A DNA stretch of 64,000 nt from a virus: positions 4,780-68,779 of IMG/VR virus record IMGVR_UViG_3300015242_000024. One strand, 5' to 3'. A program made the position numbers and the translations under genes. Of the stretch, positions 248 through 63,651 are shown in pieces. Every line of letters begins with the position of its first letter. Within the stretch, counting starts at the first letter, position 1. Below the pieces are notes generated by a model. The model made no database searches, had not been told where the DNA came from, and was given only the letters and a program-made list of their open reading frames with translations.

Positions 248-399
248 GCAATTCGGCACTAGATGGAAAGGGGGTGGTTACCTTGCGCAGAAAGCGTAAG
301 CGTAAATTACCCTAGGCACTAAGCCAAGCTAGCGGGATTTGAGTTCCGGGCATTCCGAAAGGGTGTCCGGGCTAATGTCCAACTAGAAAGGTGGAAACA

Positions 400-561
400 A
401 TGCAGACTCTCAAGTTTGCCGCAATGCGTGCGGGTAATGACCCGGACCGTGATTCTGTTGACCACGGAACGTATTACGCGAATAACCTTCCCGGTATTCG
501 AAAGTACCGAAAGGAAGTTCGGGTGACGCGTGGCGCATGGCGAAAGAGGGGAAGCAAGTAA
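400..561 (+). CDS. small hypothetical protein (53 aa)
   Basis: ATG 400 after AGAAAGGTGG RBS; MQTLKFAAMRAG...; stop overlaps the next start (TAATG). Confidence 0.65.
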   Translation: MQTLKFAAMRAGNDPDRDSVDHGTYYANNLPGIRKYRKEVRVTRGAWRKRGSK

Positions 562-803
562 TGCGGGAATATCTCGTGTGGAATGAATCGGGAGATTTGA
601 TTTCCGGTCCACACAGAAAAAGGGAAGTTGCTGAAAGGCAGCAAGCTAAGGCAATGACCGACTGTGAACAGAATTTTTGTGAAACGGACGGTCAAGAGGA
701 AACGCCCGGTCGTGGCAATTTCAAGTGTGGCGTACTTTCACCGCACGGAATCCACATTCAAGTAACCGAGAATGGTTACGACATTACCGGGCATGATTAC
801 TGA
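561..803 (+). CDS. hypothetical Cys/His-containing protein
   Basis: ORF 537..803; start at 561 is coupled to the upstream stop. Confidence 0.65.
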   Translation: MREYLVWNESGDLISGPHRKREVAERQQAKAMTDCEQNFCETDGQEETPGRGNFKCGVLSPHGIHIQVTENGYDITGHDY

Positions 804-817
804 CATTCTGTGTGTCT

Positions 818-871
818 GGTCATTGTCAGTGCGGAGTCTGACAGTGTCCAAATGCATTGACGGTCAATGCA
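818..871 (+). promoter_or_regulatory. tandem two-hairpin element, copy 1
   Basis: GGTCATTGTCAG-TGCGGAGT-CTGACAGTGTCC, then TGCATTGA-CGG-TCAATGCA, then RBS. Confidence 0.7.
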
Positions 872-888
872 GAGAAAAGGGGCTCAAA

Positions 889-1050
889 ATGCGTACTGCC
901 ATCGTTGACGGTCGTTCGGGTGTCGTTGCTGCCACCGGTTCGGCGCAGAATGCCGGTAAGGTGTTCGTCCTTTTCGATGATGAGCGTTTCACCGGTGACA
1001 CGTCCGCCGATTGGTTCCCCGCGTCGGTCGTTACGTCCGACAACGGCTGA
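889..1050 (+). CDS. small hypothetical protein
   Basis: ATG 889 with GAAAAGGGG RBS (MRTAIVDGRSG...). Confidence 0.65.
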   Translation: MRTAIVDGRSGVVAATGSAQNAGKVFVLFDDERFTGDTSADWFPASVVTSDNG

Positions 1051-1154
1051 CAACGTGTGTGGGGGAGCGTCTGAGAGGTTTTCAGCGCTCCCCCGGTCCA
1101 TCGGTCCAACCAAGCTACGAACGGCCGTTAGAACGGCACTGAGAGGGTTTCGCC

Positions 1155-1465: not shown

Positions 1466-1900
1466 ATGGAGATTCGCAACGTGACCAATCCGAGCAACAT
1501 CGGAACGGCCATTCTCCAGACTTCCGCAAAGTGGGGAGACAACATCACTTCCCGTGGCATTACGTCGAATGTCCGGCGCAATGGCAATTACAATGCGCGG
1601 GTAAGGCTTGTGGCGCATTCGTCGTTTGGTGACGGAACGCGCGAAAGCGCAAGCGGTAGGCGCGGCCCGTGGGTTTGCTGGCATGCGCAGCGCGATTTTT
1701 TCCGCGCGCTGTTCGCCATTGAGCCTACGGCAACGGTTCGAACGGGCCTAGGACGTGATGGGGTGACCTATTCGGCCGCAAGCTTTGAGAGCACGTTTCC
1801 GGGCACGTACAACACGAATGCGGGAAGTCTGTACTACCCGCGAGAGTTTGGCGGGTTGTGCGGTCACGGTGGACGTGAGGCAGTGAACGGCACTTATTAA
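1466..1900 (+). CDS. hypothetical protein
   Basis: 144 aa ORF with GGAAAGGA RBS. Confidence 0.8.
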   Translation: MEIRNVTNPSNIGTAILQTSAKWGDNITSRGITSNVRRNGNYNARVRLVAHSSFGDGTRESASGRRGPWVCWHAQRDFFRALFAIEPTATVRTGLGRDGVTYSAASFESTFPGTYNTNAGSLYYPREFGGLCGHGGREAVNGTY

Positions 1901-2679: not shown

Positions 2680-2775
2680 ATGGCAATCACAACATGGATT
2701 ATCCGTTGTGTGAACTGCCGCCGGTTGATTTTTGCTGGGCAAACGTGCGTTTGCGGAACTCGCAACGGTGTATGA
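2680..2775 (+). CDS. small Cys-rich protein (31 aa)
   Basis: MAITTWIIRCVNCRRLIFAGQTCVCGTRNGV; fills the gap between coupled genes. Confidence 0.45.
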   Translation: MAITTWIIRCVNCRRLIFAGQTCVCGTRNGV

Positions 2776-2786
2776 AAGGTAGAAAA

Positions 2787-3047
2787 GTGAAGGAAATCAT
2801 GCGGGTTTGCCTTTCCGACAATGGAAAGGAAATCCTGATGTATTCCGAGAATGGCGAAACCCTGGAAAGGGTATACGCCGTTCGTGACTTTGCCGCGATT
2901 GCTGAAACGGCAAGGGAAGCTGTGGAATCCGCTTTCCAGGATGACTACATGGAAAGGAACGGACGGCATTTCAATAACTGCCTAGGCTATGAGGATTGCC
3001 GGGCGGGTATGTGTGATGAGCATTACGAGAATGAAGGGACGTACTGA
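2787..3047 (+). CDS. hypothetical protein
   Basis: GTG 2787 after GAAAGG, within ORF 2694..3047. Confidence 0.6.
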   Translation: MKEIMRVCLSDNGKEILMYSENGETLERVYAVRDFAAIAETAREAVESAFQDDYMERNGRHFNNCLGYEDCRAGMCDEHYENEGTY

Positions 3048-3516: not shown

Positions 3517-4107
3517 ATGCGTCACGTAGCCACACACGGGCACAACGGGTACTTTGGGTGTGAGCGGGAAGGGTGTAAGAACCTTCCTGCCGTTCATGGC
3601 ACCCATACGCGTTGCCGTTGTGAGGGTTGGCAGACTCAAAACAAGGGATTGTGTACGGCGTGCAATTCGCCGGTATTGGCGGATTGGGAATGGGAACTCT
3701 TGACGGATAATGTCCATTGGGCTAATTCGTGCCTAGGGGATGGTTTCAATTCCTATGGTATGGAGTGCCCCGGATATGCACGTTCAGAATGGCCGTGCTC
3801 GGTATGCTCAGATAGGCAGGCATCGGAAGTGCAGAATTCGGCCGGGTTTGTAGAGACCCTAGATAGAATGGTAAGCAATATGCAGAATAGGGAAGAAAAG
3901 GAAACAGACAACTTCCCTATTACCCTAGTAGCACATAGGGGAGATAAGACTATCCCTGTAGTGCATGTAAGGGCAGATAGCATTACCGCAGTAGAGAGTA
4001 AGACAAAGGGATATGTAGACCTTTCCTTTGAGTATTACGGTAATGACATCATTGGCTATGTGCCTATGGTGGATTACTACACAACCGAGTCTGATAGTGA
4101 CTACTGA
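3517..4107 (+). CDS. Cys-rich hypothetical protein
   Basis: 196 aa with several CxxC motifs; AGGGAAGGG RBS. Confidence 0.65.
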   Translation: MRHVATHGHNGYFGCEREGCKNLPAVHGTHTRCRCEGWQTQNKGLCTACNSPVLADWEWELLTDNVHWANSCLGDGFNSYGMECPGYARSEWPCSVCSDRQASEVQNSAGFVETLDRMVSNMQNREEKETDNFPITLVAHRGDKTIPVVHVRADSITAVESKTKGYVDLSFEYYGNDIIGYVPMVDYYTTESDSDY

Positions 4108-4379: not shown

Positions 4380-4655
4380 GTGTTCGCATTGCAGTATGTA
4401 GATAGGCCGGGTAATGGGTATGGTGGATATGTAGTGAATGACGGTACACATACCGTATTCATTGCGGCTACCACATCTAGTGATATCGGTAAGCTGTATA
4501 GGTGGCTAGGTAAGGGGGATATGGCCAAGGGTAGGGATGAATACCAGAGTGATGCACTCACCTTGCCTAGTGTGTCTCTCAATCCCATGCAATACAATGA
4601 CATGGTTAACCCTATGTCTAAGGGTAATGAGGTTGCATATATCAAAGAGGGTTAA
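4380..4655 (+). CDS. hypothetical protein
   Basis: 91 aa ORF, GTG start. Confidence 0.5.
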   Translation: MFALQYVDRPGNGYGGYVVNDGTHTVFIAATTSSDIGKLYRWLGKGDMAKGRDEYQSDALTLPSVSLNPMQYNDMVNPMSKGNEVAYIKEG

Positions 4656-5092: not shown

Positions 5093-5311
5093 CTACTTAT
5101 CAGAATCTTCTTCTAGTGCAAATGCGGGAGCTGGAGTGAATGTAAGACCAGCCTCATGCATCTCCGCAAGCTCCATAGCCTTTTGCGGATTGTCTACTGC
5201 CAGCAGTGCAAGGAGGATATCGTAAGTGCGCATCATTTGAATGAGCAGCACCATCTGAAAATTTTCGGGCGCAAATGCGTCTCTACTGTCTTCAGAGTTC
5301 TTGGGATTCAT
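5093..5311 (-). CDS. hypothetical protein
   Basis: 72 aa; GGAG RBS; tightly packed operon. Confidence 0.7.
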   Translation of the reverse strand: MNPKNSEDSRDAFAPENFQMVLLIQMMRTYDILLALLAVDNPQKAMELAEMHEAGLTFTPAPAFALEEDSDK

Positions 5312-5483
5312 CCATTCTCCTCTCTACTGATACAATCATATCGTTTGTATCTAGGTTGATTTGCCAGTCATCGACATAAATCCCGCCGTCGAATGACTCG
5401 ATTTCAACCCCGCCCTTCTTTGCCCAGTAAACGATTTCTTCCTTGTTTACCAGACGCTCTAGTGTATCCTTTTGTGTAGCCAT
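5292..5483 (-). CDS. hypothetical protein
   Basis: 63 aa ORF in operon. Confidence 0.65.
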   Translation of the reverse strand: MATQKDTLERLVNKEEIVYWAKKGGVEIESFDGGIYVDDWQINLDTNDMIVSVERRMDESQEL

Positions 5484-5492
5484 AATTCTATC

Positions 5493-5657
5493 TTACTTGA
5501 TGTAGTTGAATTTGTCACCATTCATCACGCAGGTCCAGCGTCCTACTGTCAGCTCGTTTCCTGTGCGATTAACGTGAAGACCATGCTTGCGACCAAAGTT
5601 ACGTAGGTCTGCATCTGTCTTACACTTGAGCAAGTCTTTCTGTTTTGCTTCAGCCAT
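5493..5657 (-). CDS. small hypothetical protein (54 aa)
   Basis: MAEAKQKDLLKCKTDADLRNFG...; fills the gap; below the ORF-track cutoff. Confidence 0.6.
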   Translation of the reverse strand: MAEAKQKDLLKCKTDADLRNFGRKHGLHVNRTGNELTVGRWTCVMNGDKFNYIK

Positions 5658-5862
5658 TATTATCCTCATCGTATAGTCTTACAATCAAATCTGACAAGGT
5701 ACGATTAGCGATACCCGCCGCAGAAGTGAGTGGCGAATACATCACCTTGTCAGACATATGAAGCTTCGCATTTGCTTCATTTTGAGTTTCCAGATAATCT
5801 ACAACGCTGTCTAGTACGTCGCTGACCTTCTGAAGCTCCCTGATTACATCTGAGCTTTCCAT
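5650..5862 (-). CDS. hypothetical protein
   Basis: 70 aa; AGGAG RBS. Confidence 0.7.
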   Translation of the reverse strand: MESSDVIRELQKVSDVLDSVVDYLETQNEANAKLHMSDKVMYSPLTSAAGIANRTLSDLIVRLYDEDNNG

Positions 5863-6491
5863 TGCTCTCCTAGGTATTTTGTATAGGCTGGTGGAATTGC
5901 CTCATTGATTTCTTTATGAATCATCCAGTCAATGCCCATTGCTTTGCGCTTTTCTGCAATGCTGGCATTACCGCCACCTGTTACTTGGACAAACATCTCT
6001 TCCGACATAGCCCGCCCGAAATGATTTTTCCGCTTATCAAAGGTATAGACCAATGCTTTATGCTTCGGGTGTTCTGGCGCTACCAGGTCAAAATTCGATT
6101 CAAACAGTCTATGCCTGTAGACTCTCAACCCTGAGAACATTCCACCACATAGCATGATGGGGTCTTTTAGCGGAGCCGTATCCACGTTCTCGATAATGTA
6201 CGGCAATCCAGAGTCCTCAAGCATTTCTCTGGTCGGACCAATAAGGTCCGGGTACTCCTTGCCTGTGCGCTTTTGCAAGTCGCTGTACCTTTGACAGGGA
6301 GGTGATGCGTGGACCAAATCAAATCGTCCTGACATCATCATGCGCCATCCTACAGAAAGTGCGTCACCCAATACAAAGTTGTAAGGATAACGCACCTGAA
6401 TTCTATTGTCTACACCGACAACTTCGAAACCAGCTTGGTGGTAGCCTGTAGAAGCTCCACCAGCGCCACAATATAGGTCTAGTATTCTCAC
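5844..6491 (-). CDS. short DNA (cytosine-5) methyltransferase-like protein
   Basis: Motif I LDLYCGAGG, motif IV SPPCQ, motif VI ENV, motif VIII-like YRHRLF, motif X-like EAIPP. Confidence 0.8.
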   Translation of the reverse strand: MRILDLYCGAGGASTGYHQAGFEVVGVDNRIQVRYPYNFVLGDALSVGWRMMMSGRFDLVHASPPCQRYSDLQKRTGKEYPDLIGPTREMLEDSGLPYIIENVDTAPLKDPIMLCGGMFSGLRVYRHRLFESNFDLVAPEHPKHKALVYTFDKRKNHFGRAMSEEMFVQVTGGGNASIAEKRKAMGIDWMIHKEINEAIPPAYTKYLGEQWKAQM

Positions 6492-6507
6492 ATCCCTATT
6501 GTAGCAG

Positions 6508-7203
6508 TTATGACTTCTTAATAGTATCCATACACACAGGGAAATGTTCGTGGGTCAAATCATATACCGCCCGCGCATAATCCTGAATCTCCTTTTGTGC
6601 ATCATGTTCTAGACGCTGATGAAGGAAATGAGTTACAGAGCCTAGTGAAGCTGTCCAACGCCAACGTACATATAGCCCGTATGCAGGCAAGAAGAGCCGA
6701 GCCTGTTCTGCACAGATACCACGTGCCATTGCCTCTTCGTACAACTTGAGTCCCTGATTAATATACCAAACCATAGAGTCAGTCATTACTTCACCGTGGT
6801 CGATTGATACCGCTTCACCAGAACCCTGCTTGCGATTTTCTGGAGCAGAGCGCCACTCAACTGAAGACGGAACATAGAACTCTGGAGTCTCAGTTACATA
6901 ACGACGACTCGATTCATTCCATCCATTCTGGTCTTCAAGGTGAGTAGAGGCTACTGCATACTTCCACCACTGCCTAGCTACGAAGAGTGGTGCATAAACC
7001 TCAAAAGTGAGAGCGGAATGACGGAACACCGAGGAGTGCTCTTCACGTTGAAGAAAGGCGAGAAGTCTTGCTTCTCTATCCCCAAACTCTACACTCTCCT
7101 TTGCGAAAGAAACCTTGGCTGAGTTAACAGGGTCAAGGTCATCGCCCATGTGCTTAATATATCTTACGTATCCTTTATCAAGGACTTCAATCTTATCTGT
7201 CAT
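6508..7203 (-). CDS. thyX: flavin-dependent thymidylate synthase
   Basis: EHSSVF, APLFVARQW, NESSRRY, EQARLFLP and HAQ-like DAQKEI motifs. Confidence 0.9.
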   Translation of the reverse strand: MTDKIEVLDKGYVRYIKHMGDDLDPVNSAKVSFAKESVEFGDREARLLAFLQREEHSSVFRHSALTFEVYAPLFVARQWWKYAVASTHLEDQNGWNESSRRYVTETPEFYVPSSVEWRSAPENRKQGSGEAVSIDHGEVMTDSMVWYINQGLKLYEEAMARGICAEQARLFLPAYGLYVRWRWTASLGSVTHFLHQRLEHDAQKEIQDYARAVYDLTHEHFPVCMDTIKKS

Positions 7204-7355
7204 ACTAGTCCGTCCAACTCCTTTTGATATCCGTCTATCTTCTTCTGAGCCTTCTTTGCGCCAAGCTCATTTCCTTCTTTTTCGAATTGAGCCTTAATTC
7301 TCTTTTGGCTAGCAATTTGACCTTGAAGTCTTTCAGCTCTCTTCTGTGGGTCCAT
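7200..7355 (-). CDS. small coiled-coil protein (51 aa)
   Basis: MDPQKRAERLQGQIASQ...; stop overlaps thyX ATG. Confidence 0.6.
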   Translation of the reverse strand: MDPQKRAERLQGQIASQKRIKAQFEKEGNELGAKKAQKKIDGYQKELDGLV

Positions 7356-7470
7356 TCACAATCTCCTCAAACTTCTGACTGGTATCAGTCTTTTCCTGAG
7401 TGACGTAGAATGCTCCATCGTCGCTTTGCTCTACCGGAAGCCCATTGCTTCCAATGTATATGTTTGCCAC
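7333..7470 (-). CDS. small hypothetical protein
   Basis: GTG with AGGAGGAG RBS. Confidence 0.55.
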   Translation of the reverse strand: MANIYIGSNGLPVEQSDDGAFYVTQEKTDTSQKFEEIVNGPTEES

Positions 7471-7642
7471 TACTCCTCCTTTTGGTAACAATCCATCCAT
7501 CTTCTTGACACTGCCAGCAAGGTTGAAACACATAGTTTTCAAGGTCGAGAACAGACTTACGCAATGAGCAAACTGCGCAAGCGTGGTCATGGCTTACCCA
7601 TTGTCCTCCGTCTGTCCTTATTCTTGGCTTATGCATCTTCAT
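7385..7642 (-). CDS. zinc-ribbon hypothetical protein
   Basis: CAVC...CWQC. Confidence 0.55.
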   Translation of the reverse strand: MKMHKPRIRTDGGQWVSHDHACAVCSLRKSVLDLENYVFQPCWQCQEDGWIVTKRRSSGKHIHWKQWASGRAKRRWSILRHSGKD

Positions 7643-8418: not shown

Positions 8419-8447
8419 AATGTCAGTATAACATACTGACAGAAAAA

Positions 8448-53854: not shown

Positions 53855-56800
53855 TTGGCTTACACAGAACTACATTTGCATGATTACTATTCCACTCTGG
53901 ATGGACTGAATTCCCCAGAGGAATATATGGTCAGGGCAAAGGAACTGGGCATGACCCACCTTTCCCAGACTAATCACGGAACTCTTCTTGGTCACCGTGA
54001 ATTCCAGAAGGCAGCCAAGGATGCTGGTATTGTTCCTATTCTTGGTGTTGAGGCTTACATTTCGCCTACCGACCGCTTTGACCGTCGTGCCAAGAACAAG
54101 CGTTCTGATGGTACCAACATCTATAACCACCTTATCATCTTGGCTCAGGGGGAAACGGGTCTAAAGACTCTGAATAAGCTGAACGAGGCTGCGTGGACCG
54201 AAGGTTTTTACTCCAAGCCACGAATTGATATGGAGCTTCTTGAGGAGCACAACGAAGGTCTCATCGTTCTGTCTGGTTGCCTCAACAGCATGCTGTGCAA
54301 GGCAATTGAGGCGGGTAACGTTGATGAGGCTCACAACATTGCCCTCAGATTCAAGGATATTCTGGGAGACCGGTTTTACATTGAAGTTCAGGCACATAAT
54401 CCAAAGGCAATGAATGAGGCTCTATTCGAGATTGCCGATAGAAATGGTATTCCGCCGGTTGTAACTTCCGACTGCCATTACGCGCGTAAGGAAGACCTGT
54501 GGATTGAAGAGGCTATGCTGATTCTCTCTACCAAGCCTAAGTTTGGTAAGGAGTTCGAGTTCAGTAAGTCTCAGAAGATGGATATGCTGGAGCGATTCAA
54601 CTATCTATATCCTGACCGAATGATGTCTTTCGAAGAAATCCAGATTTATCTCAAGTCTGCTGAAGAGCAGCTTAATGATTTTGCGAATAATGGATTTAAT
54701 CGGGAAGACATTGTAACGAATACTGAAGTAATTGCTTCTCGAATTGAAGAGTATCCATTCCATCAGAATCTTGACCTGCTTCCTAGGCCAAAGAATGGTA
54801 ATCCTGATGACCTTCTGGAAAAGAAGGCCCGAGCCGGTTTGCGTAATCGTGGTCTCGACAAGGAGCCTGAGTATGTAGCACGCCTTGATGAAGAGCTTGA
54901 AATCATCAAGAACAAGGATTTCTCAACCTACTTTCTCATTGTGGCTAACACCATTAAGTGGGCAAAGGACCAGGGAATTCTTGTTGGTCCTGGTCGTGGT
55001 TCTGGTGCGGGTTCTCTCGTTAACTACGCTCTTGGTATTACTGAAGTTGACCCTATCAAGTATGGGCTTCTGTTCTTCCGATTCATTAACCCGGAACGAA
55101 ATGACTTCCCTGACATTGATACAGACTTTGAGGACCGTAGGCGCAATGAGGTAAAGGATTACCTAACCAGGAAGTTCACTCACGTTGCATCTATTGCTAC
55201 AGTGGGTTACTTCAAGGATAAGGGTGTTGTCCGCGACGCTGCTCGTGTATTCCGAATTGAGCAGGCAGAGACGGATGAAGCACTCAAGACAATCTCTACC
55301 TTTGAGGAGTATCAGACTTCTTCTGCAACTGAGGCTTACCGTAAGAAGTATCCTGAGGTTGAGAAGTTGGCTCTGGAGCTTCGTGGTCGTATTCGTCAGA
55401 CTGGTATGCATGCGGCTGGTATTGTTATCTCAAAGGAGCCTATTTCAAAGTATGCTCCGATGGAGACTGCTGCCGACCCAAAGGATAAGACGGCTCCACG
55501 TAGGGCTCTAGTGGCCCTAGACATGAATGAGGCGGCCGACCTTGGTCTGATTAAGTTGGACGCACTTGGTCTAAAGACTCTTGCAGTTATTGGTGACGCT
55601 ATTGAAATGGTTGAAAAGAACCACAATCGAAAGATTGTTCTGACCGACATTCCTCTTGAGGATAAGAAGGTCTACGACATGATTTCGGCGGGTCACACAA
55701 AGGGAGTGTTCCAGTGTGAGGCTGGTCCTTATACAGGACTGATTACTACTATGGGTGGAGTTCACTCGTTTGCTGAACTTGCTGCGTCTAACGCTCTTGT
55801 TCGTCCGGGTGCAATGAATACCATTGGTGCTGAGTACATCGCTCGAAAGAATGGTGAATCTCAGGTTACGTATCCTCACGAGGTTATGCGGTCCTTCACT
55901 GAAGAGACCTATGGTGAGGTTCTGTATCAGGAGCAGGTCATGCTCGCTATGACTGAATTGGCTGGAATGTCAATGGCAACCGCCGATAAGGTTCGTAAGA
56001 TTATTGGTAAGAAGAAGGATGTTAGCGAGTTTGAGCAGTATAAGGCTGAATTCGTAAATGGTGCTTCTGAAAAGGTTGACAGGAAGGTCGCTGAGAAGTT
56101 GTGGCATGACTTTGAGGCTCACGCGGGCTATTCGTTCAATAAGTCCCATGCTGTTGCATACTCCATGGTTTCATACTGGACTGCATGGCTGAAGGTCTAC
56201 TATCCAGTAGAATTCGTTTATGCTATGATGCGCAACGAGGAAAAGAAGGAAGCGCTCACGACATACCTCATTGAGGCAAAGCGTATGCGGGTTCCGATTA
56301 AGTTGCCTCACGTCAACAGTTCTGAGATTGACTTCACCATTGAGGGTGATGGCATCAGATTCGGTTTGGCAGACATTAAGTTTATCTCAACGAACCTTGC
56401 TACGAAGTTGATTGCTCAAAGACCGTATGCAAACTATGCGGAATTGGAAGCCAAGGTTAAAGAGAAGGGAAACGGACTCAATGTTCGTGTTTTGACATCA
56501 ATGAATGCGATTGGTGCAGCAACATTCCCTGACAATCCTAAGCGTGGAGATGAGCGTCACTATTTCTACGAATACCTAAATATTCCTGCATTCCGAATTC
56601 CTGATATGCCTGATGGAGTGAGGGCACAATTTACTCCATTGAATCAGTTCCGTGAAGGTGACACATGCGCTGTCATGGGAATGGTAAAGAATGTAAAGCG
56701 TGGTCAGGGATGGTCTCGAATTGAGATTGTTGATGAGACTGGAGAGGCTTCATTCTTCCATAAGGAAGACACTCTGGTTTCGCCTGGTAACTTTTATGCT

Positions 56801-57145
56801 ATGCTTATTGCTAACAAGCGATTGGCTCGGTATGTAGAAATCAGTGATTTCACGCGGGATGCAAATAACACTTTCGTAAGGTACATGTACACCAAGAAGT
56901 TCGCTCAACTTACTGAAGGCTTCTACTACGTTGTTTCCAATCAGACTCGAAAGACGAAGGCTGGAAAGAACATGGCGGACCTAGTCCTTGCGGATGAAGA
57001 GAAGAACCTGTATCCTGTACTAGTGTTCCCACAAATGTTCCACAAGGCTTATGGCTTCTGTAAGGAAGGCGCAATCATTGAGGCGACATTGAAGCAGACA
57101 CAAGACGGAGATTCATATTTCCTTGATGAGGTTATCCTCCGATAA
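53855..57145 (+). CDS. dnaE: DNA polymerase III alpha subunit
   Basis: PHP (HLH..YS.LDG, SDCHY), GRGSGAGSLV, PDIDTD, HAAG, YSFNKSH; no intein visible. Confidence 0.93.
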   Translation: MAYTELHLHDYYSTLDGLNSPEEYMVRAKELGMTHLSQTNHGTLLGHREFQKAAKDAGIVPILGVEAYISPTDRFDRRAKNKRSDGTNIYNHLIILAQGETGLKTLNKLNEAAWTEGFYSKPRIDMELLEEHNEGLIVLSGCLNSMLCKAIEAGNVDEAHNIALRFKDILGDRFYIEVQAHNPKAMNEALFEIADRNGIPPVVTSDCHYARKEDLWIEEAMLILSTKPKFGKEFEFSKSQKMDMLERFNYLYPDRMMSFEEIQIYLKSAEEQLNDFANNGFNREDIVTNTEVIASRIEEYPFHQNLDLLPRPKNGNPDDLLEKKARAGLRNRGLDKEPEYVARLDEELEIIKNKDFSTYFLIVANTIKWAKDQGILVGPGRGSGAGSLVNYALGITEVDPIKYGLLFFRFINPERNDFPDIDTDFEDRRRNEVKDYLTRKFTHVASIATVGYFKDKGVVRDAARVFRIEQAETDEALKTISTFEEYQTSSATEAYRKKYPEVEKLALELRGRIRQTGMHAAGIVISKEPISKYAPMETAADPKDKTAPRRALVALDMNEAADLGLIKLDALGLKTLAVIGDAIEMVEKNHNRKIVLTDIPLEDKKVYDMISAGHTKGVFQCEAGPYTGLITTMGGVHSFAELAASNALVRPGAMNTIGAEYIARKNGESQVTYPHEVMRSFTEETYGEVLYQEQVMLAMTELAGMSMATADKVRKIIGKKKDVSEFEQYKAEFVNGASEKVDRKVAEKLWHDFEAHAGYSFNKSHAVAYSMVSYWTAWLKVYYPVEFVYAMMRNEEKKEALTTYLIEAKRMRVPIKLPHVNSSEIDFTIEGDGIRFGLADIKFISTNLATKLIAQRPYANYAELEAKVKEKGNGLNVRVLTSMNAIGAATFPDNPKRGDERHYFYEYLNIPAFRIPDMPDGVRAQFTPLNQFREGDTCAVMGMVKNVKRGQGWSRIEIVDETGEASFFHKEDTLVSPGNFYAMLIANKRLARYVEISDFTRDANNTFVRYMYTKKFAQLTEGFYYVVSNQTRKTKAGKNMADLVLADEEKNLYPVLVFPQMFHKAYGFCKEGAIIEATLKQTQDGDSYFLDEVILR

Positions 57146-57936: not shown

Positions 57937-58959
57937 GTGGCATTTGAAGATTTCATGTCAAAACTGGACCCTAAGACAGCCAAGCGTCTGAAGGTAGCTC
58001 AGGAGATTGAGCTTACGCGCTTTCCTTTGGCTAGCACGGGTCTAACTACAGCACTTGGTGGCGGTATCGGTGCTGGTAGAATTACGCTGGTCTATGGAAA
58101 TACCAGCAGTGGAAAGTCCGTCCTGATGATGCAGACCATTGGTTTGCTACAGAAGCAGGGCAAGGTTTGTGCTTGGGTAGACGTTGAAGGTACGTATGAA
58201 AAAACCTTTGGTGCCAAGTTGGGAATTAACAATGATGAGCTAATTCTTATCCAGAAGAGGTCTTTTGGTGCTATCACTGATAGCATTCTTCCGCTGATTC
58301 GGGCGGGTGTGGATATGATTGTCATCGATTCTATTAGTGATGCTCTACCAGAAGTCTTTGTAGACAGTGGTGGAGAGGCAGTAGAGTTTGATAAGATGAA
58401 GCAGCTTGGTGCTCATGCCAAGTCTTGTACAATGATGGTTAACGCCATTCACTATGAGAATGAAGAGACAGCAGTTGTTTTGATTTCTCAGACCACAACA
58501 AAGATTGAGTCAACCTACGTAAAGCAGGTTCCTCATGGTGGTCAGAAGGTACCGTTTGCCTCATCTCAGATTATCAAGTTGACTTCCTCAAATACAGAGA
58601 AGCAACAGAAGATGGGTAATACGTACATTGGTGACCTCATTATTCAGGCTCCAATTGGTCGCTCCGTAGAGTATTATGTAGAAAAGAACAAGATGGGTCC
58701 TCAGTCCCGAAAGGGTGAGTACGACCTTTTCTATGCAGGTGACTTTGTGGGTATTGATTCTGTTGGTGAAGTTCTTGACTCAGCAGAAAAGTACGGTGTT
58801 GTCAGGAAGTCTGGTGCATGGTACTATGTTGAGGATGAGAAGTTTCAGGGACGAGACACGACAGTTGCGGCTCTCCGTGAAAATGATATTCTCCTAAAGA
58901 CAATTACAGAGAAGGTGAATCTCGTCCTAACCGGCGAACTACCTGATGACGAAGTTTAG
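57937..58959 (+). CDS. recA: RecA-like recombinase
   Basis: GNTSSGKS, VIDSI, GGQKV.F, KNK..P, KSGAWY. Confidence 0.88.
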   Translation: MAFEDFMSKLDPKTAKRLKVAQEIELTRFPLASTGLTTALGGGIGAGRITLVYGNTSSGKSVLMMQTIGLLQKQGKVCAWVDVEGTYEKTFGAKLGINNDELILIQKRSFGAITDSILPLIRAGVDMIVIDSISDALPEVFVDSGGEAVEFDKMKQLGAHAKSCTMMVNAIHYENEETAVVLISQTTTKIESTYVKQVPHGGQKVPFASSQIIKLTSSNTEKQQKMGNTYIGDLIIQAPIGRSVEYYVEKNKMGPQSRKGEYDLFYAGDFVGIDSVGEVLDSAEKYGVVRKSGAWYYVEDEKFQGRDTTVAALRENDILLKTITEKVNLVLTGELPDDEV

Positions 58960-59565: not shown

Positions 59566-59938
59566 GTATTTCGTCCAGGCTGAGGATGGAGTTGGGCCGG
59601 GTGGTGATGTTATCTTCAGAAATGGTCATCCAGAATATAACTGGTATGACGTCTATCTTGATGATACGAAGATAGGCAAGGTAATGGAAACTGGTCACGG
59701 AAGCCGTCGTAGATGGACTGGCCTTTCTTACGCACAGGACAGCGAATTCTTCAAAACGAGAATGCTTGAGGGGTTCGCAACTCGATGGGACGCAGCAGTC
59801 TTTGTATTCAAGCATCATGGATATTGGATGCATACTGAACGTAGACACATTGAGGACGGAGTCCGTTTTGAGAAGAGGTTTGCTCAAAACAGGATGAAGA
59901 AGGCTTATGAAATTATGAAGGGAATTGAAGACATTTGA
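59558..59938 (+). CDS. hypothetical protein
   Basis: Coupled ORF. Confidence 0.65.
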   Translation: MSKYFVQAEDGVGPGGDVIFRNGHPEYNWYDVYLDDTKIGKVMETGHGSRRRWTGLSYAQDSEFFKTRMLEGFATRWDAAVFVFKHHGYWMHTERRHIEDGVRFEKRFAQNRMKKAYEIMKGIEDI

Positions 59939-60718: not shown

Positions 60719-61507
60719 ATGAAATTGACAAGAGATATTGTGCAGGGTCTGAAGTTTCGTAAGCAGCCCAAGGGTTTCGATGCTAATAAACTGGCTGAAA
60801 CTCTTGAGGCTGCTTATATGCAGCAGCGCAGACCCGACAAGCACACACAGAAGAAGACCTTTTCCCCAAGCACTATTGGTTATGGGCATGGAACGTGTCC
60901 GCGATATTGGTTCCTCGCTTTTACTGGTGGACCTTATATTGATACAGTAGATGCCTTGGGAATTGCTAACATGGCTAATGGTACTCAGGCGCACGAGCGC
61001 ATTGAGGCACTTTTTGATGCCTCTGGAATCCGACTCGGAAACGAAATTGAGATTCTTCATTCCGACCCGCCAATTCGCGGGTTTGCTGACGTTGAAATCA
61101 TGTGGGACGGAGAAGAGGTAATTGGTGAGGTAAAGACAACTCGCCAGGAAGCCTTCCTTGTTCGTCAGTCAACTATGAAGCCAAGCCCCAATCACCTATT
61201 CCAGATTCTTACGTATATGAAGGTTCGTAATCGCAATCTGGGCTTTTTGCTGTACGAGAATAAGAACTCTCAGGAATTTCTTATCATTCCTATTGAGATG
61301 AACGAAACTAATGAAGGCATCATTAATAAGGCATGGGATTGGATGCGAACTGTCTATAAGTCCTATGAGGATGGGGAGGCTCCAAATATTCCATTCAGGT
61401 CTAATAGTAAGATTTGCAAGGCTTGCCCGTTTAAGAAGTGGTGCTGGAGTGAAGACTCTCCATCTGGAGTAGTAGATATTCCTGCAATGGAGGTTCCAAA
61501 GATTTGA
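60719..61507 (+). CDS. Cas4-like/RecB-family exonuclease
   Basis: CPR...G..H...GFAD..EVKT..Q..Y...CKACPFKKWC. Confidence 0.85.
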   Translation: MKLTRDIVQGLKFRKQPKGFDANKLAETLEAAYMQQRRPDKHTQKKTFSPSTIGYGHGTCPRYWFLAFTGGPYIDTVDALGIANMANGTQAHERIEALFDASGIRLGNEIEILHSDPPIRGFADVEIMWDGEEVIGEVKTTRQEAFLVRQSTMKPSPNHLFQILTYMKVRNRNLGFLLYENKNSQEFLIIPIEMNETNEGIINKAWDWMRTVYKSYEDGEAPNIPFRSNSKICKACPFKKWCWSEDSPSGVVDIPAMEVPKI

Positions 61508-61788
61508 GAACATGTGCATACGCTGAGTGTGGCCAAGAATTTGAGGCCAAGACTCACAACCAGAGATATTGCTCGGACGAATGCTGTCGTAAGGCAACTA
61601 ACGCCCGGCTAATGGAACAATACTACGAAAAGAAGGCCAGAAGGCAGGGCCACATTCGTGTATGCAACACTCCCGACTGCAATACTCGTCTGAATAGATA
61701 CAATGACAGTAATGTGTGTGGGAAGTGTGAAGCAACTCGAAAGAACGAAGAGCGAGTAGAGTTGCTATTCAAATTCGCGGGAATTTAA
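61504..61788 (+). CDS. Cys-rich zinc-finger protein
   Basis: CAYAEC..YCSDEC..C..C. Confidence 0.7.
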   Translation: MRTCAYAECGQEFEAKTHNQRYCSDECCRKATNARLMEQYYEKKARRQGHIRVCNTPDCNTRLNRYNDSNVCGKCEATRKNEERVELLFKFAGI

Positions 61789-61790
61789 AA

Positions 61791-62378
61791 TTGTCACTAG
61801 CAAATCTAACTAAGGCTAAGGCGAGTAGGGTCATGGGTATTGACTGTTCGACCCACTCGCTCGCATTCACAATCTTCTTCAACCGTAGACCAATCCAGTG
61901 GGGGAAGATTGAGTTTGAGGGTTCAGACGTTTTCGAAAGACTTGAAGACGCTGCCAACAAATTGCGGGCTGTAAAAGATAGTTTCGACGTTGATTACATT
62001 GCATTCGAAGGAGCAATCCTAGCTAAGACAAAGAATGCTGATGTAACCATTAAGTTGGCTATGGTCTACGGAGCCTGTATTGCAGAGCTTATGAGGAAAA
62101 ATGTCAAGGTAGTGACCGTCAAGCCTTTGTCCTGGCAGTCATACATTGGTAACCCAAACTTCAAACTGGCTGAGAAGAACGCCTTGAAGTTGCAATATCC
62201 TGGTAAGTCTGTTTCTTGGTATTCAACCAAGGTTCGCGAGATTCGTAAGCAGAGAACAATGGACTACTTCAATAAGAAGTGGCCACATATGGAACTCACC
62301 GATAATGATGTTGGTGATTCTGCGGGAATCGCGTACTATGCCTACTACATGCTGACCACTCGTGGTACAGTAGATTGA
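61791..62378 (+). CDS. RuvC-like resolvase
   Basis: MGIDCST, FE, DVGDS. Confidence 0.8.
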   Translation: MSLANLTKAKASRVMGIDCSTHSLAFTIFFNRRPIQWGKIEFEGSDVFERLEDAANKLRAVKDSFDVDYIAFEGAILAKTKNADVTIKLAMVYGACIAELMRKNVKVVTVKPLSWQSYIGNPNFKLAEKNALKLQYPGKSVSWYSTKVREIRKQRTMDYFNKKWPHMELTDNDVGDSAGIAYYAYYMLTTRGTVD

Positions 62379-62411
62379 GGCGCAAGGGCTTCGGCCCAAG
62401 CTGGAGGTAAT

Positions 62412-62900
62412 ATGTGGGTTGGAATTACGGGGCATCGTCCCGAACGACTTGAAGATAACGAAGATGCAGTTAAGGAGCTGGTCTCTGAAGCCCTTCTACA
62501 TTTTGGAGCTACCAGACTTTTTCAGGGCATGGCTGCTGGTGTTGACCTGTGGTCTGCCAAGGAGGCATGGAAGCTCAAGATTCCGTACACGGCTTGTAAG
62601 CCTTGGGCTGGTCATAATCCACGAGTTGGTGATATGATTGAATACACAAAGGTCATCAGACATGCTGATGAGATTGTAGATGTATCACCGAATTTCGATT
62701 ATCCAGGACCGTGGGTTTATGGTAAGAGAAATGAATTCATTGTGGACAATGCCAGGGCGATGATTGCAGTTTGGGATGGAAAGCCTTATGGTGGAACATA
62801 TAACTGCATTGAGTACGCATGGAAGAAGTCTATTCCCGTTCTGAGAATTGACCCTGAAGAAAGGACTATTGGCTATGTCAGTGAAGAAGTACCTTTCTAA
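62412..62900 (+). CDS. SLOG/YspA-like (DUF1273-like) protein
   Basis: GITGHRP, GMAAGVD, RNEFIVD, AVWDG..GGT. Confidence 0.8.
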   Translation: MWVGITGHRPERLEDNEDAVKELVSEALLHFGATRLFQGMAAGVDLWSAKEAWKLKIPYTACKPWAGHNPRVGDMIEYTKVIRHADEIVDVSPNFDYPGPWVYGKRNEFIVDNARAMIAVWDGKPYGGTYNCIEYAWKKSIPVLRIDPEERTIGYVSEEVPF

Positions 62901-63027
62901 GGATTGGCTCAGGCGACGATTTCTGATTGATGACAAATCAATTGATGAAATTGCTAAAGAATGTAATGTCCAGCCAATGACAATTCGTCGTCAGCTAAAG
63001 ACATTTGAATTGATTAAGAAAAGGTAA
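62875..63027 (+). CDS. small helix-turn-helix protein
   Basis: KSIDEIAKECNVQPMTIRRQL. Confidence 0.65.
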   Translation: MSVKKYLSKDWLRRRFLIDDKSIDEIAKECNVQPMTIRRQLKTFELIKKR

Positions 63028-63651
63028 ATGGAATACACAATTTTCAATGTTGACAGTTCTCGTCAACATTATATCGATATGATGAAACCTAAGTTGTCGG
63101 GTTGGGACAATCTGAATGTCTATTCTGTAGACGGCCGGATTCCAGAAACACTCAAGGTGTATCGTAAGAAGTATCCCTATGCAATTAACTATGAAGCTAG
63201 GGCCGGACAGCTAGGTATTTGGTATAGTGTCCTGAATGCACTTCAGGATGCTCCTATCGTCACTTTTGAGGACGATGCTCTGCTACACGACAACTTCAAA
63301 CGGGAGTTTGATGCTCGTGTTAACGAGTTGCCTGAGGATTTTGATTTCTTCTCACTCTTTGTCCCAAGAGACAGTGACCATCTATACACGACTGAGAAGT
63401 CTGCTGGATGGTTTGTTTGTAAAACTTACCAGAGATACGGCGGGGTTTCTATGTACTACTCAAAGAAGGGTGCAGAGAAAATTCAGGGCCTCCTTGAGAG
63501 AGATGGAATCACTGGACAGTATGACGATACTCTATATGAATATTCAAAGAATGGTGAGCTAAACGGATATTGTTCTAAGCCATCCATTCAAGACCTCGTG
63601 TATATTACAGGGGCAGAAGAAAGCATTGTACAAGAAACGGATTATGTATGA
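63028..63651 (+). CDS. glycosyltransferase, GT25-like
   Basis: IFNVDSSR, VDG, TFEDDA, YYSKKGAEK. Confidence 0.7.
   Translation: MEYTIFNVDSSRQHYIDMMKPKLSGWDNLNVYSVDGRIPETLKVYRKKYPYAINYEARAGQLGIWYSVLNALQDAPIVTFEDDALLHDNFKREFDARVNELPEDFDFFSLFVPRDSDHLYTTEKSAGWFVCKTYQRYGGVSMYYSKKGAEKIQGLLERDGITGQYDDTLYEYSKNGELNGYCSKPSIQDLVYITGAEESIVQETDYV

What the first reader, a model, noticed from the sequence alone, without database searches (positions are those of the whole stretch)
332..63450. Dispersed GGCGGGT motif oriented with transcription
Seen: exact GGCGGGT on the + strand at 20118, 23055, 29564, 33842, 34076, 34921, 35170, 37193, 38626, 39073, 41487, 41601, 42351, 43758, 44166, 46466, 52464, 52802, 54310, 55687 and 58302. 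There are also many GCCGGGT/GCGGGW variants. A rough base-composition estimate gives only about 3 expected. The reverse complement is rare in + blocks (I saw ~14803 and ~61065) but appears in the minus-strand block (exact at ~5713, variants at ~5371 and ~5408). Both orientations overlap in ACCCGCCGGGA at ~9360, where transcription diverges. The motif occurs in different reading frames and uses GGG/GCG codons that these genes otherwise seem to disfavour, so it looks like a nucleic-acid signal. Inference: a Chi/KOPS-like, primase, nick, modification, antitermination or packaging signal.
Basis: partly seen in the sequence, partly recalled or inferred. Interest (0 to 1): 0.7.

Follow-up and report, generated by a model that had tools for sequence, protein, structure and literature searches.

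The report
Lineage-specific dispersed 7-mer in Streptomyces phage
A short DNA word, GGCGGGT, has been written many times into the genes of this Streptomyces phage by choosing otherwise rare codons, and related phages use slightly different words, so a phage-encoded protein probably reads it, though which one is still unknown.

Summary
GGCGGGT occurs 28 times in the window (23 on +, 5 on -) against 3.6 expected. With protein sequence and per-gene codon usage kept, the sense strand of coding sequence holds 25 copies against 1.9. With codon-junction dinucleotides also kept, it is 25 against 3.9, and 0 of 1000 shuffles reach 25.

All seven positions matter, and two reading frames are used. The strand bias is only partly real. 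The null itself gives about 70% sense, and antisense copies are also enriched, about 3-fold against about 7-fold for sense.

The window is about half of a Stanwilliamsviridae/Loccivirinae phage, and all relatives examined share the word. Sister lineages isolated on the same host use CGGCCGGT(A) or SCCGGTG instead. A Streptomyces genome shows no excess and no special skew.

Sites turn over while their number is kept. The mechanism is unresolved. My leading guess, at about 0.3, is a primase start word.

The parts
1850..1856 (+). GGCGGGT, sense in CDS 1466..1900, codon position 1
3002..3008 (+). GGCGGGT, sense in CDS 2694..3047, codon position 3
5713..5719 (-). GGCGGGT on - strand, sense in - strand CDS 5650..5862; orthologous copies in Faust and Gilson
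9360..9366 (-). GGCGGGT on - strand, in the divergent intergenic region just upstream of a TTGACA..TAGAGT promoter-like site
10594..10600 (-). GGCGGGT antisense in + CDS 10446..11435
14803..14809 (-). GGCGGGT antisense in + CDS 14680..16410
20118..20124 (+). GGCGGGT sense, CDS 18882..20201 (capsid maturation protease homologue), codon position 1
23055..23061 (+). GGCGGGT sense, CDS 22105..23625, codon position 3
29564..29570 (+). GGCGGGT sense, tape measure gene 28013..34318, codon position 1; unique to this phage among 7 aligned
33842..33848 (+). GGCGGGT sense, tape measure gene, codon position 1
34076..34082 (+). GGCGGGT sense, tape measure gene, codon position 1
34921..34927 (+). GGCGGGT sense, minor tail gene 34718..37906, codon position 3 (3 of 7 genomes)
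35170..35176 (+). GGCGGGT sense, minor tail gene 34718..37906, codon position 3
37193..37199 (+). GGCGGGT sense, minor tail gene 34718..37906, codon position 1 (kept in 6 of 7 genomes)
38626..38632 (+). GGCGGGT sense, CDS 38336..39232, codon position 3
39073..39079 (+). GGCGGGT sense, CDS 38336..39232, codon position 3 (4 of 7 genomes)
41487..41493 (+). GGCGGGT sense, minor tail gene 39229..45249, codon position 3
41601..41607 (+). GGCGGGT sense, minor tail gene 39229..45249, codon position 3
42351..42357 (+). GGCGGGT sense, minor tail gene 39229..45249, codon position 3
43758..43764 (+). GGCGGGT sense, minor tail gene 39229..45249, codon position 3
44166..44172 (+). GGCGGGT sense, minor tail gene 39229..45249, codon position 3
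46466..46472 (+). GGCGGGT sense, small HNH_3 endonuclease gene 46346..46645, codon position 1 (kept in 6 of 7 genomes)
52464..52470 (+). GGCGGGT sense, inside the primase gene 51529..52626, codon position 3 (kept in 6 of 7 genomes)
52802..52808 (+). GGCGGGT sense, CDS 52734..53447 (ssDNA-binding protein homologue), followed by AACCGCC (short hairpin)
54310..54316 (+). GGCGGGT sense, DnaE-like polymerase gene 53855..57145, codon position 3
55687..55693 (+). GGCGGGT sense, DnaE-like polymerase gene, codon position 3
58302..58308 (+). GGCGGGT sense, RecA/UvsX-like gene 57937..58959, codon position 3
61065..61071 (-). GGCGGGT antisense in Cas4-like nuclease gene 60719..61507; preceded on its strand by ACCCGC (hairpin)
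3841..3847 (+). variant GCCGGGT, uncalled/intergenic
4406..4412 (+). variant GCCGGGT, sense
15673..15679 (+). variant GCCGGGT, sense
17179..17185 (+). variant GCCGGGT, sense (portal gene)
23672..23678 (-). variant GCCGGGT, antisense
26015..26021 (+). variant GCCGGGT, sense
30482..30488 (+). variant GCCGGGT, sense (tape measure gene)
39685..39691 (+). variant GCCGGGT, sense
41947..41953 (+). variant GCCGGGT, sense
42969..42975 (+). variant GCCGGGT, sense
45587..45593 (+). variant GCCGGGT, sense
49544..49550 (+). variant GCCGGGT, sense
59596..59602 (+). variant GCCGGGT, sense
51529..52626 (+). DnaG-type primase gene: candidate reader, by inference only
   Evidence: CHC2 zinc ribbon (residues 36-85), Toprim (225-284); 84% identical to the Faust primase

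Best explanation
Shown, with about 0.85 confidence: (C)GGCGGGT(W), with the tolerated variant GCCGGGT, is a recognition word kept in the genome by selection acting on the DNA (or its transcript) and not on the proteins. Rare codons (GGG, GCG) are used specifically where they build the word. It is built in two reading frames, and one-letter neighbours are depleted. Non-coding DNA carries it at a similar density. What is kept is the number of copies, about 1 per 2.5 kb and spread evenly, not their places. It is enriched in both orientations, about 2.3-fold more on the sense strand. Sister lineages of the same phage family, isolated on the same host strain, carry a different word (CGGCCGGT(A); SCCGGTG) and lack this one. 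A Streptomyces chromosome does not favour it. Inferred, with about 0.3 confidence, and my single most likely mechanism: the word is a start site for the phage's own DnaG-type primase. It would be read on single-stranded template as 5'-..GGT-N-3', with the primer starting opposite the T (pppACCCGCC..). This follows the pattern of T7, 5'-(G/T)(G/T)GTC-3'. A GC-rich start word is rare by chance in a 47% G+C genome, so the genome must seed itself with it. On this reading the sense-strand excess would reflect forks that mostly move with transcription, and the weaker antisense excess would reflect forks that move the other way.
For: Enrichment. The window holds 28 copies against 3.6. It is the top 7-mer by order-3 Markov z in the contig. 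On the sense strand of CDS there are 25 copies against 1.89 +/- 1.33, with a maximum of 7 in 400 synonymous shuffles. Keeping codon-junction dinucleotides as well gives 25 against 3.88, maximum 10, with 0 of 1000 reaching 25.

Codon pairs. GGC-GGG occurs 16 times against 1.4, and GCG-GGT 22 times against 7.1.

Frames. Codon position 1 uses 8 of 25 possible contexts (expected 0.20). Codon position 3 uses 17 of 116 (expected 1.51).

Specificity. Every position matters. Neighbours are depleted, for example GGCAGGT 1 against 5.4.

Family-wide presence. Faust has 48 on + and 14 on -. Five further relatives have 14 to 20 on + and 1 to 3 on - in about 49 kb each. Ankus has 11 and 1.

Lineage words. 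In EGole, CGGCCGGT occurs 10 times against 0.35, and GGCGGGT only 1 on + and 3 on - in 83 kb. In KentuckyRacer, GGCCGGTG occurs 11 times against 0.86. In this contig, GGCCGGT occurs 1 on + and 0 on -. EGole, KentuckyRacer, Blueeyedbeauty and Comrade were all isolated on S. griseus ATCC 10137.

Host. S. venezuelae has 1752 and 1768 copies against 2094 and 2205 for the reversed control. In 800 kb the word is under-represented, and its skew is ordinary.

Turnover. 46 aligned sites in 7 genomes include 21 singletons. Retention is 26 of 65 against 0.32 for controls.

For the primase reading. The primase has a CHC2 zinc ribbon and a Toprim domain. T7 primase sites, Okazaki sizes of 1 to 6 kb and the switch of strand at the origin are described in PMC12839067 (passages). 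Minus-gene blocks carry the word on the - strand, 10 against 3.
Against: No primase is known to need 7 to 8 bases. In T7, the known pentamers leave only a weak mark under the same shuffle test: TGGTC 76 against 52, GTGTC 38 against 21.5, GGGTC 34 against 30. Such sites therefore need not be enriched.

The origin is unknown. No iterons were found near the replication genes or at the divergent region. The strand switch coincides exactly with the switch of gene orientation in three lineages. Any transcription-linked reading explains that without an extra assumption.

G/C degeneracy at positions 1 and 2 looks more like double-strand recognition. Spacing is no more regular than chance. Antisense enrichment (Q 4 against 0.82; Faust 9 against 2.44) is not predicted by a strictly polar signal. 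Most of the raw strand bias is compositional.

Gene calls are my own, and 4 doubtful ORFs were dropped. The relatives are not independent samples.
Confidence: 0.3

Rival explanations
1. Binding site on double-stranded DNA for a phage-encoded sequence-specific protein. This could be a polar roadblock or elongation control like the stoperators of cluster A mycobacteriophages, or an orientation-indifferent organiser or regulator. The site would co-evolve with its protein.
For: The word changes by single bases between lineages. The density of 0.4 to 0.9 per kb resembles the more than 20 stoperators found per genome, whose orientation follows transcription (PMC9283540, passages). Orientation follows gene orientation, including the minus-gene blocks. 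There is G/C degeneracy at positions 1 and 2. A weak AT-rich 5' flank makes a site of about 13 bp. Enrichment in both orientations fits double-strand binding. Relatives annotate a conserved helix-turn-helix protein just upstream of the helicase.
Against: Stoperators are 13-mers that lie in promoters and short intergenic spaces of temperate phages. Here 27 of 28 copies lie inside genes, and the places turn over. No repressor or integrase appears in the annotation of the relatives. The window's HTH homologue (48699..49235) has no Pfam match. No protein has been tied to the word.
Confidence: 0.22
2. Chi-like signal that tames a helicase-nuclease, either host AdnAB or a phage nuclease, and so protects or recombines phage DNA.
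For: The statistical picture matches that of Chi-rich phages. LLS has 23 Chi sites, 20 in one orientation, at 1 per 1.86 kb. P1 has 1 per 1.9 kb. [quoted passage not shown] Here the word is the top 7-mer, is enriched in both orientations with a skew, and turns over. The + strand orientation is the one met from its 3' side by an enzyme entering at the right end. The - strand copies in the left block face the left end.
Against: The word is not over-represented or specially skewed in S. venezuelae: whole-genome counts, and 800 kb of 8 Mb. Phages isolated on the same host strain use mutually exclusive words. No Chi is known for AdnAB (PMC5314763, passages). Chi-rich lambdoid phages lack their own recombination module (PMC12315714, abstract). 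This phage carries a RecA/UvsX-like gene, a Cas4-like nuclease and a RuvC-like gene. No AddAB- or RecBCD-like motor is annotated in the relatives. Only one host species was tested, and the natural hosts may differ from the isolation host.
Confidence: 0.1
3. Recognition site of a phage nicking endonuclease, giving localized single-strand interruptions as in T5, phiKMV-like phages and Pseudomonas phage tf.
For: Those phages carry an asymmetric 7- to 9-base consensus many times in one strand. Phage tf has 14 copies of TACT/RTGMC, all in the top strand of 46 kb. The T5 consensus is R/GCGCRGG (PMC3517423, passages). This phage family has several small HNH genes. Its sister subfamily has a T5-like layout: about 130 kb, long terminal repeats and many tRNAs (PMC5764925, passages).
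Against: In tf, every site is on one strand although its genes converge, and the places are similar among relatives. Here both strands carry copies, the strand flips with gene orientation, and the places turn over. The function of such nicks is unknown, so there is no reason for selection on their number. Nicks could not be looked for, because the only runs holding this DNA are kept as contigs.
Confidence: 0.08
4. No function: a by-product of codon-context bias, restriction-site avoidance, a sequence-specific repair or mutation bias, or a self-propagating recombination bias.
For: The genome has other strong word biases. GATC is absent, many GC-rich palindromes are absent, and GGA-GGN pairs are depleted. 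Retention of individual sites is close to neutral. Depleted neighbours plus an enriched word is also the signature of a repair 'sink'.
Against: Two reading frames and non-coding copies share one 7-mer. The enrichment survives a null that keeps junction dinucleotides. Avoiding palindromes should scatter GC-rich codons, not pair them. GGCC, CCGG and CGGCCG are not avoided here, yet GGCCGGT is nearly absent, while the sister lineage shows the reverse. Some copies were made by amino-acid changes. No candidate repair enzyme is known.
Confidence: 0.1
5. RNA-level element in the transcripts, or a non-template-strand element read during transcription (an ops/RfaH-like reloading site).
For: There is a sense-strand excess, and it flips with gene orientation. 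The first five bases equal those of the ops element; this is recalled from memory and not tested.
Against: No NusG/NGN or sigma-70 region 2 domain was found in Faust, EGole or this contig. Antisense copies are enriched too. G/C degeneracy does not fit base-pairing with a guide RNA. No phage RNA gene carries the complement; none of the - strand copies in Faust falls in the tmRNA or tRNA genes. No RNA data exist for this phage.
Confidence: 0.08

Closest known systems
Chi sites accumulated in phages (E. coli phage LLS, P1; Pseudomonas phage MD8)
   Same: A short G-rich asymmetric word that is the most over-represented oligomer. It occurs about 1 per 2 kb, mostly in one orientation, inside genes, and its sites come and go (PMC12315714, sections 6 and 15).
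   Different: Chi is the host's word, read by host RecBCD, and it is abundant in the host chromosome. Here the word is not favoured in a Streptomyces genome, it differs between phage lineages isolated on one host strain, and the phage has its own recombination genes.
Stoperators of cluster A mycobacteriophages
   Same: Phage-specific asymmetric sites numbering more than 20 per genome. Their orientation follows transcription, and a phage protein reads them (PMC9283540, passages). That they co-evolve with the repressor is recalled from PMC6550527, of which I saw the search listing only.
   Different: Stoperators are 13-mers in promoters and short intergenic spaces of temperate phages. Here the core is 7 to 8 bases, almost always inside genes, the places are not conserved, and no repressor is annotated.
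Primase recognition sites (T7 5'-(G/T)(G/T)GTC-3')
   Same: They end in GGT plus one more base. They are read on one strand, which switches at the origin. The spacing of sites in use is 1 to 6 kb (PMC12839067, passages). The phage has its own zinc-ribbon primase.
   Different: Known sites are 3 to 5 bases long. In T7 they are only 1.1- to 1.8-fold enriched under the same test. Here the word is 7 to 8 bases and 7- to 13-fold enriched.
Localized nick consensus sequences (T5, phiKMV-like phages, phage tf)
   Same: A 7- to 9-base asymmetric consensus repeated many times, far above chance, in lytic phages (PMC3517423, passages).
   Different: Those sites sit strictly on one strand, whatever the gene orientation, and at similar places in relatives. 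Here both strands carry copies, the strand flips with the genes, and the places turn over. Nicks were not tested.
KOPS/SRS (FtsK/SpoIIIE) and DNA uptake sequences
   Same: Dispersed, skewed or over-represented 7- to 10-mers that sit in coding DNA in several frames and are kept by number. This comparison is recalled knowledge.
   Different: No FtsK gamma domain was found in these phages. The host shows no special skew. No uptake process is known for Streptomyces phages.

Membership tests
Chi (host helicase-nuclease hotspot) | Over-represented in the host chromosome | tested here: not met
   S. venezuelae whole genome: 1752 and 1768 copies against 2094 and 2205 for the reversed control. In 800 kb: 231 against 281 (order-5 Markov), rank 14330 of 14523. 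One host species only.
Chi (host helicase-nuclease hotspot) | Skewed with replication in the host beyond other words of like composition | tested here: not met
   231:143, z 4.6, rank 297 of 7082 for its complement. This is the same ratio as other G-rich 7-mers, for example 1769:1053.
Chi (host helicase-nuclease hotspot) | One word per host, shared by phages of that host | tested here: not met
   Loccivirinae use GGCGGGT, EGole uses GGCCGGT(A), and KentuckyRacer uses SCCGGTG. All were isolated on S. griseus ATCC 10137.
Chi (host helicase-nuclease hotspot) | Dense and mostly one orientation in the phage | tested here: met
   26 on + and 6 on - in 68.8 kb; the top 7-mer.
Chi (host helicase-nuclease hotspot) | Attenuates the nuclease in vitro or in vivo | not testable with these tools
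   No Chi is known for AdnAB (PMC5314763, passages).
KOPS/SRS (FtsK-type translocase guide) | A translocase with a gamma (winged-helix) reader domain is present | tested here: not met
   PF09397 matched 0 of 4 records. PF01580 gave only E = 0.1 in KentuckyRacer and nothing in Faust, EGole or this contig. The EGole 'FtsK-like' protein has no tblastn match in Faust or this contig.
Stoperator (repressor roadblock site) | Asymmetric site whose orientation follows transcription | tested here: met
   24 sense, 3 antisense and 1 intergenic in the window. Minus-gene blocks: 10 on - against 3 on +. About 70% sense is expected by composition.
Stoperator (repressor roadblock site) | 13-mer located in promoters or short intergenic spaces | tested here: not met
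   The core is 7 to 8 bases with a weak flank. 27 of 28 copies lie inside called genes.
Stoperator (repressor roadblock site) | Cognate immunity repressor encoded by the phage | not tested
   None is annotated in Faust. The HTH protein 48699..49235 has no Pfam match.
Primase recognition site | Phage encodes a primase with a zinc-binding reader domain | tested here: met
   Zn_ribbon_DnaG E = 6.8e-8; Toprim_4 E = 4.8e-11.
Primase recognition site | Sites lie on the lagging-strand template | tested here: inconclusive
   The origin was not found. The strand switch coincides with the gene-orientation switch. The long-terminal-repeat test was inconclusive because the repeats have 55% G+C.
Primase recognition site | Primers start at the site | not testable with these tools
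   This needs biochemistry or Okazaki-fragment mapping.
Localized nick site | Consensus confined to one strand of the whole genome | tested here: not met
   Faust has 48 on + and 14 on -. 5 of the 14 lie in the left minus-gene block.
Localized nick site | Physical single-strand break at the site | not testable with these tools
   All 11 runs listed are kept as contigs.
Intrinsic terminator stem | Complementary arm nearby and a T run after it | tested here: not met
   In Faust, of 62 copies, 4 have an upstream partner, 3 have a downstream partner and 3 have a T run of 3 or more.

The most novel reading that the evidence does not exclude
Stanwilliamsviridae phages carry a private, fast-evolving genome-wide 'word code'. 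A phage protein, most attractively the replicative primase, acts only at a 7- to 8-base word. This would be the first long, lineage-specific priming (or self-marking) code seen as a genome signature.
Probability: 0.3. Interest if true: 0.8.

Novelty: new variant of a known kind. Interest (0 to 1): 0.66.

Why it matters
Dispersed polar words such as Chi, KOPS, stoperators and nick sites are among the few genome-wide signals in which selection on DNA overrides codon choice. Each one led to a piece of machinery. Here a well-sampled family of large lytic Streptomyces phages shows such a word. It has three single-base variants in three lineages that grow on one host strain. That points to an unidentified phage-encoded reader, and it offers a natural specificity-swap experiment. 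In the literature I could search I found no description of it. A search for 'ggcgggt' listed only primer-type hits in the 15 shown of 2,925. Searches on Streptomyces phage, cluster and motif found nothing. The BE1 genome announcement does not contain the word 'motif'. The result also matters for recoding or engineering these phages, because synonymous changes are not neutral here.

Tried and rejected
1. Terminator-stem explanation: rejected.
2. Host Chi or KOPS: not supported.
3. FtsK-like reader: rejected for this lineage.
4. NusG/RfaH-like or sigma-like reader: none found.
5. Host AdpA site. The recalled consensus TGGCSNGWWY fits GGCGGGTW and GGCCGGTA. It comes from memory, not from a call. 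Rejected because the two words are mutually exclusive between lineages isolated on one host and the preceding base is C, not T.
6. Restriction avoidance forcing the word: GGCC, CCGG and CGGCCG are not avoided.
7. Regular spacing: not significant. CV is 0.72 to 1.05 against 0.94 to 0.99 for random placement.
8. Clustering near the ends: none.
9. Test on the long terminal repeats of EGole and KentuckyRacer. In raw counts the antisense share is higher in the repeats, 12:21 against 14:102, p = 0.003. But the repeats have 55% G+C, and the local Markov expectation explains this. Inconclusive.
10. Origin search by AT-richness and repeats: nothing convincing.
11. T7 control: the known primase pentamers are only weakly enriched.
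15. My first greedy gene calls put several spurious - strand ORFs inside + genes. They were replaced by calls supported by tblastn to Faust. Four ORFs were dropped: contig 2888-3238 (-), 12718-12900 (+), 12985-13125 (+) and 32695-32814 (-). ORF 51299..51619 was left out because it overlaps the primase gene.
16. In early notes I labelled the window 'BE-cluster'. That was wrong; the records place its relatives in Loccivirinae.

Full report
**What the window is.** The window is bases 4780 to 68779 of a single 68,779-base virus record. CheckV rates the record about 53% complete. Its DNA is about 77 to 80% identical to Streptomyces phages of Stanwilliamsviridae/Loccivirinae: Faust, TunaTartare, Blueeyedbeauty, Gilson, Comrade and others. 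These genomes are about 130 kb. The contig runs from the equivalent of the right end of Faust (about 121 to 130.4 kb) straight into its left end. In Faust almost all genes are on the + strand, except a left block, genes 2-17. The window has the same layout: - strand genes at 5093..9285 and + strand genes from 9448 on.

**Check of the observation.** GGCGGGT occurs 28 times, 23 on + and 5 on -. Dinucleotide shuffles give 3.6 (largest 11; 0 of 100 reach 28). In the whole contig there are 26 copies on + and 6 on -. It is the most over-represented 7-mer by an order-3 Markov model, 26 against 4.9.

I called genes from ORFs, choosing among overlapping frames by tblastn score to Faust and by codon-usage score. 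This left 82 genes after dropping four doubtful ORFs. Permuting synonymous codons within each gene keeps every protein, every dipeptide and each gene's codon usage.
- Under that null the sense strand of coding DNA holds 25 copies against 1.89 +/- 1.33 (maximum 7 in 400 shuffles). It is the top 7-mer by a wide margin.
- A stricter null also keeps every dinucleotide across codon junctions. It gives 25 against 3.88 +/- 1.59 (maximum 10; 0 of 1000 reach 25).
- GGG is 7% of Gly codons and GCG is 11% of Ala codons. Yet GGC-GGG occurs 16 times against 1.4 expected, and GCG-GGT 22 times against 7.1.
- The word is built in two frames. 8 of 25 possible Gly-Gly-x contexts carry it (expected 0.20), and 17 of 116 x-Ala-Gly contexts (expected 1.51). 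The third frame has only 3 possible contexts.
- Every one of the seven positions matters. Only C at position 2 (GCCGGGT, 11 against 2.0), C at position 1 and G at position 7 are tolerated. Synonymous neighbours are depleted, for example GGCAGGT 1 against 5.4.
- The preferred preceding base is C, and there is a weak AT-rich stretch 3 to 6 bases upstream.
- The enrichment therefore does not disappear.

**The strand bias, looked at properly.** In the window, 24 copies are sense, 3 antisense and 1 intergenic. But the null itself predicts about 70% sense, because Gly-Gly and Ala-Gly contexts are commoner than the contexts that could carry the complement. Antisense copies are also enriched: 4 against 0.82 here and 9 against 2.44 in Faust. 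I pooled five lineages, each scored with its own word. Sense is 115 against 17.3 (6.7-fold) and antisense is 22 against 7.7 (2.9-fold). The sense share is 0.84 against a null of 0.69 (p = 5e-5; without Faust, which shares sites with the window, p = 1.4e-4). So there is a real but moderate polarity, about 2.3-fold, on top of enrichment in both orientations.

In the minus-gene blocks of four Loccivirinae genomes the word lies on the - strand 10 times and on the + strand 3 times. That is about 6 against 2 distinct sites once orthologous copies are merged. For Faust alone, comparing the block with the rest gives p = 0.0016.

**It is a family trait, kept by number and not by place.**
- Faust has 48 copies on + and 14 on -. 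Five more relatives have 14 to 20 on + and 1 to 3 on - in about 49 kb each. Ankus has 11 on + and 1 on - in 32 kb.
- In 40 codon alignments of 7 genomes there are 46 aligned sites. 21 are present in one genome only, 10 in two, 7 in three, 4 in four and 4 in six.
- Where the three covering codons encode the same residues, a relative keeps this phage's copy in 26 of 65 comparisons. Control 7-mers score 0.32, and non-motif 7-mers of the same dipeptide classes score 0.22 to 0.35.
- Some copies were made by amino-acid changes.
- Spacing is close to random, and there is no clustering at the ends.
- Only 7 of 62 copies in Faust have a complementary partner nearby, and 3 have a T run. The word is therefore not a terminator stem.

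**Who reads it: not the host.** I reached S. venezuelae ATCC 10712 through a 16S primer match. It has 1752 forward and 1768 reverse copies, against 2094 and 2205 for the reversed control word. In two 400-kb samples from the two chromosome arms the word is under-represented: 231 against 281 by order-5 Markov, rank 14330 of 14523. Its skew (231:143) is the same as that of other G-rich 7-mers.

More telling are the sister lineages. In EGole (Boydwoodruffvirinae) the word is nearly absent, 1 on + and 3 on - in 83 kb. The top words there are CGGCCGGT (10 against 0.35), GGCCGGT (20 against 4.3) and GCCGGTA (25 against 5.8). In KentuckyRacer the top words are CCCGGTG (14 against 1.7) and GGCCGGTG (11 against 0.86). 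In this contig GGCCGGT occurs once, although GGCC, CCGG and CGGCCG are not avoided. EGole, KentuckyRacer, Blueeyedbeauty and Comrade were all isolated on S. griseus ATCC 10137.

Three lineages on one host strain thus carry three words that differ by single bases. This argues for a phage-encoded reader and against host Chi, host KOPS, a host transcription factor, the host ribosome or host RNA polymerase. One caveat remains: isolation hosts may not be the natural hosts.

**What it might do.** I found no NusG-like, sigma-70 region 2 or FtsK-gamma domain in Faust, EGole, KentuckyRacer or this contig. The phage has a DnaG-type primase with a CHC2 zinc ribbon, a DnaB-like helicase, small HNH proteins, a Cas4-like nuclease and a short C5-cytosine methylase homologue.

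The candidates I weigh are these:
- **A start word for the phage primase, about 0.3.** The word ends in GGT-N, like T7's (G/T)(G/T)GTC. Sites in use in T7 are 1 to 6 kb apart and switch strand at the origin (PMC12839067, passages). A GC-rich start word would be rare by chance in a 47% G+C genome. Against this: no primase is known to need 7 to 8 bases, the origin is unknown, and T7's own pentamers are only 1.1- to 1.8-fold enriched under my test.
- **A double-strand binding site for a phage protein, polar like stoperators or not, about 0.22** (PMC9283540, passages).
- **A Chi-like signal, about 0.1.** The statistics match Chi-rich phages (PMC12315714, sections 6 and 15), but the host tests fail, and AdnAB has no known Chi (PMC5314763, passages).
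- **A nick site as in T5 or tf, about 0.08** (PMC3517423, passages).
- **No function, about 0.1.**
- **An RNA-level or non-template-strand element, about 0.08.**

The strand switch coincides with the gene-orientation switch in all lineages, at 5.9 kb in Faust, 19.4 kb in EGole and about 18 kb in KentuckyRacer. I therefore could not separate replication from transcription. A test on the 11- to 12-kb terminal repeats of EGole and KentuckyRacer was confounded by their higher G+C.

**Verdict.** The finding is real, and the refuting test is not met for the enrichment. The 'oriented with transcription' part is weaker than it looks. The new information is the set of lineage-specific variants of the word, which points to a phage-encoded reader. 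I found no description of this in the searchable literature.

Noticed in passing
whole window (and Faust L001-L003, EGole L169/L170, Ankus L175): GATC is completely absent: 0 copies against about 264 expected in the contig, 0 against about 500 in Faust, 0 against about 324 in EGole and 0 in 32 kb of Ankus. Many 6-base palindromes are also absent, including AGATCT, AGGCCT, CAGCTG, CCCGGG, CCGCGG, CTCGAG, CTGCAG, GAGCTC, GGCGCC and GGGCCC. KentuckyRacer, by contrast, has TGATCA enriched (27 against 13.6). This looks like strong restriction avoidance that differs between lineages.
   Followed up: partly
window 1-4655: The contig joins the equivalent of the Faust right end (about 121 to 130.4 kb) directly to its left end; window 4380..4655 matches Faust gene 1. 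The record was therefore assembled across the terminal repeat or a concatemer junction, and it stops at the equivalent of Faust about 60 kb.
   Followed up: partly
window 8055-8418 (-): Three tRNA-Thr genes (anticodons GGT, CGT, TGT) lie in the minus-gene block, as in Faust, Blueeyedbeauty and Gilson.
   Followed up: yes
window 9381-9415 (+): A TTGACA .. TAGAGT promoter-like pair sits in the divergent intergenic region, immediately downstream of the - strand copy of the word at 9360.
   Followed up: no
Faust L002/L003 (e.g. record 85329, 97677, 101253, 122579, 123297); contig-wide for CCAAGCTT: A second enriched word, (CC)CAAGCTT, occurs 20 times on + and 6 on - as CCCAAGCT in Faust, and 8 and 8 times as CCAAGCTT in this contig. 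In Faust it often follows a small hairpin just upstream of a ribosome-binding site between small genes. It may be a promoter, processing or terminator element.
   Followed up: no
window 13579-14517 (+): The ORF at the endolysin position has a strong coding score but no tblastn match in Faust, so the lysis cassette appears to have been swapped.
   Followed up: no
coding regions of the contig: GGA-GGN codon pairs are strongly depleted (GGA-GGT 3 against 19.1; GGA-GGA 7 against 14.9), as expected if Shine-Dalgarno-like GGAGG is avoided inside genes. GCT-GGC (1 against 9.3) and GCC-GGC (0 against 3.9) are also avoided.
   Followed up: no
window 5844-6491 (-): The 'DNA methylase' homologue is only 215 residues long. 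It matches only the first 84 positions of the C5-cytosine methylase profile.
   Followed up: no
EGole record 75384-77198; KentuckyRacer record 74906-76717: The genes annotated 'FtsK-like DNA translocase' get at best E = 0.1 against Pfam FtsK_SpoIIIE and no gamma-domain match. They have no homologue in Faust or this contig.
   Followed up: partly
S. venezuelae G001:C1 1.5-1.9 Mb and 6.1-6.5 Mb: The top strand is G-rich in the left-arm sample (GC skew +0.049) and C-rich in the right-arm sample (-0.051). If the origin is central, which I did not verify, this is the reverse of the usual G-rich leading strand.
   Followed up: no
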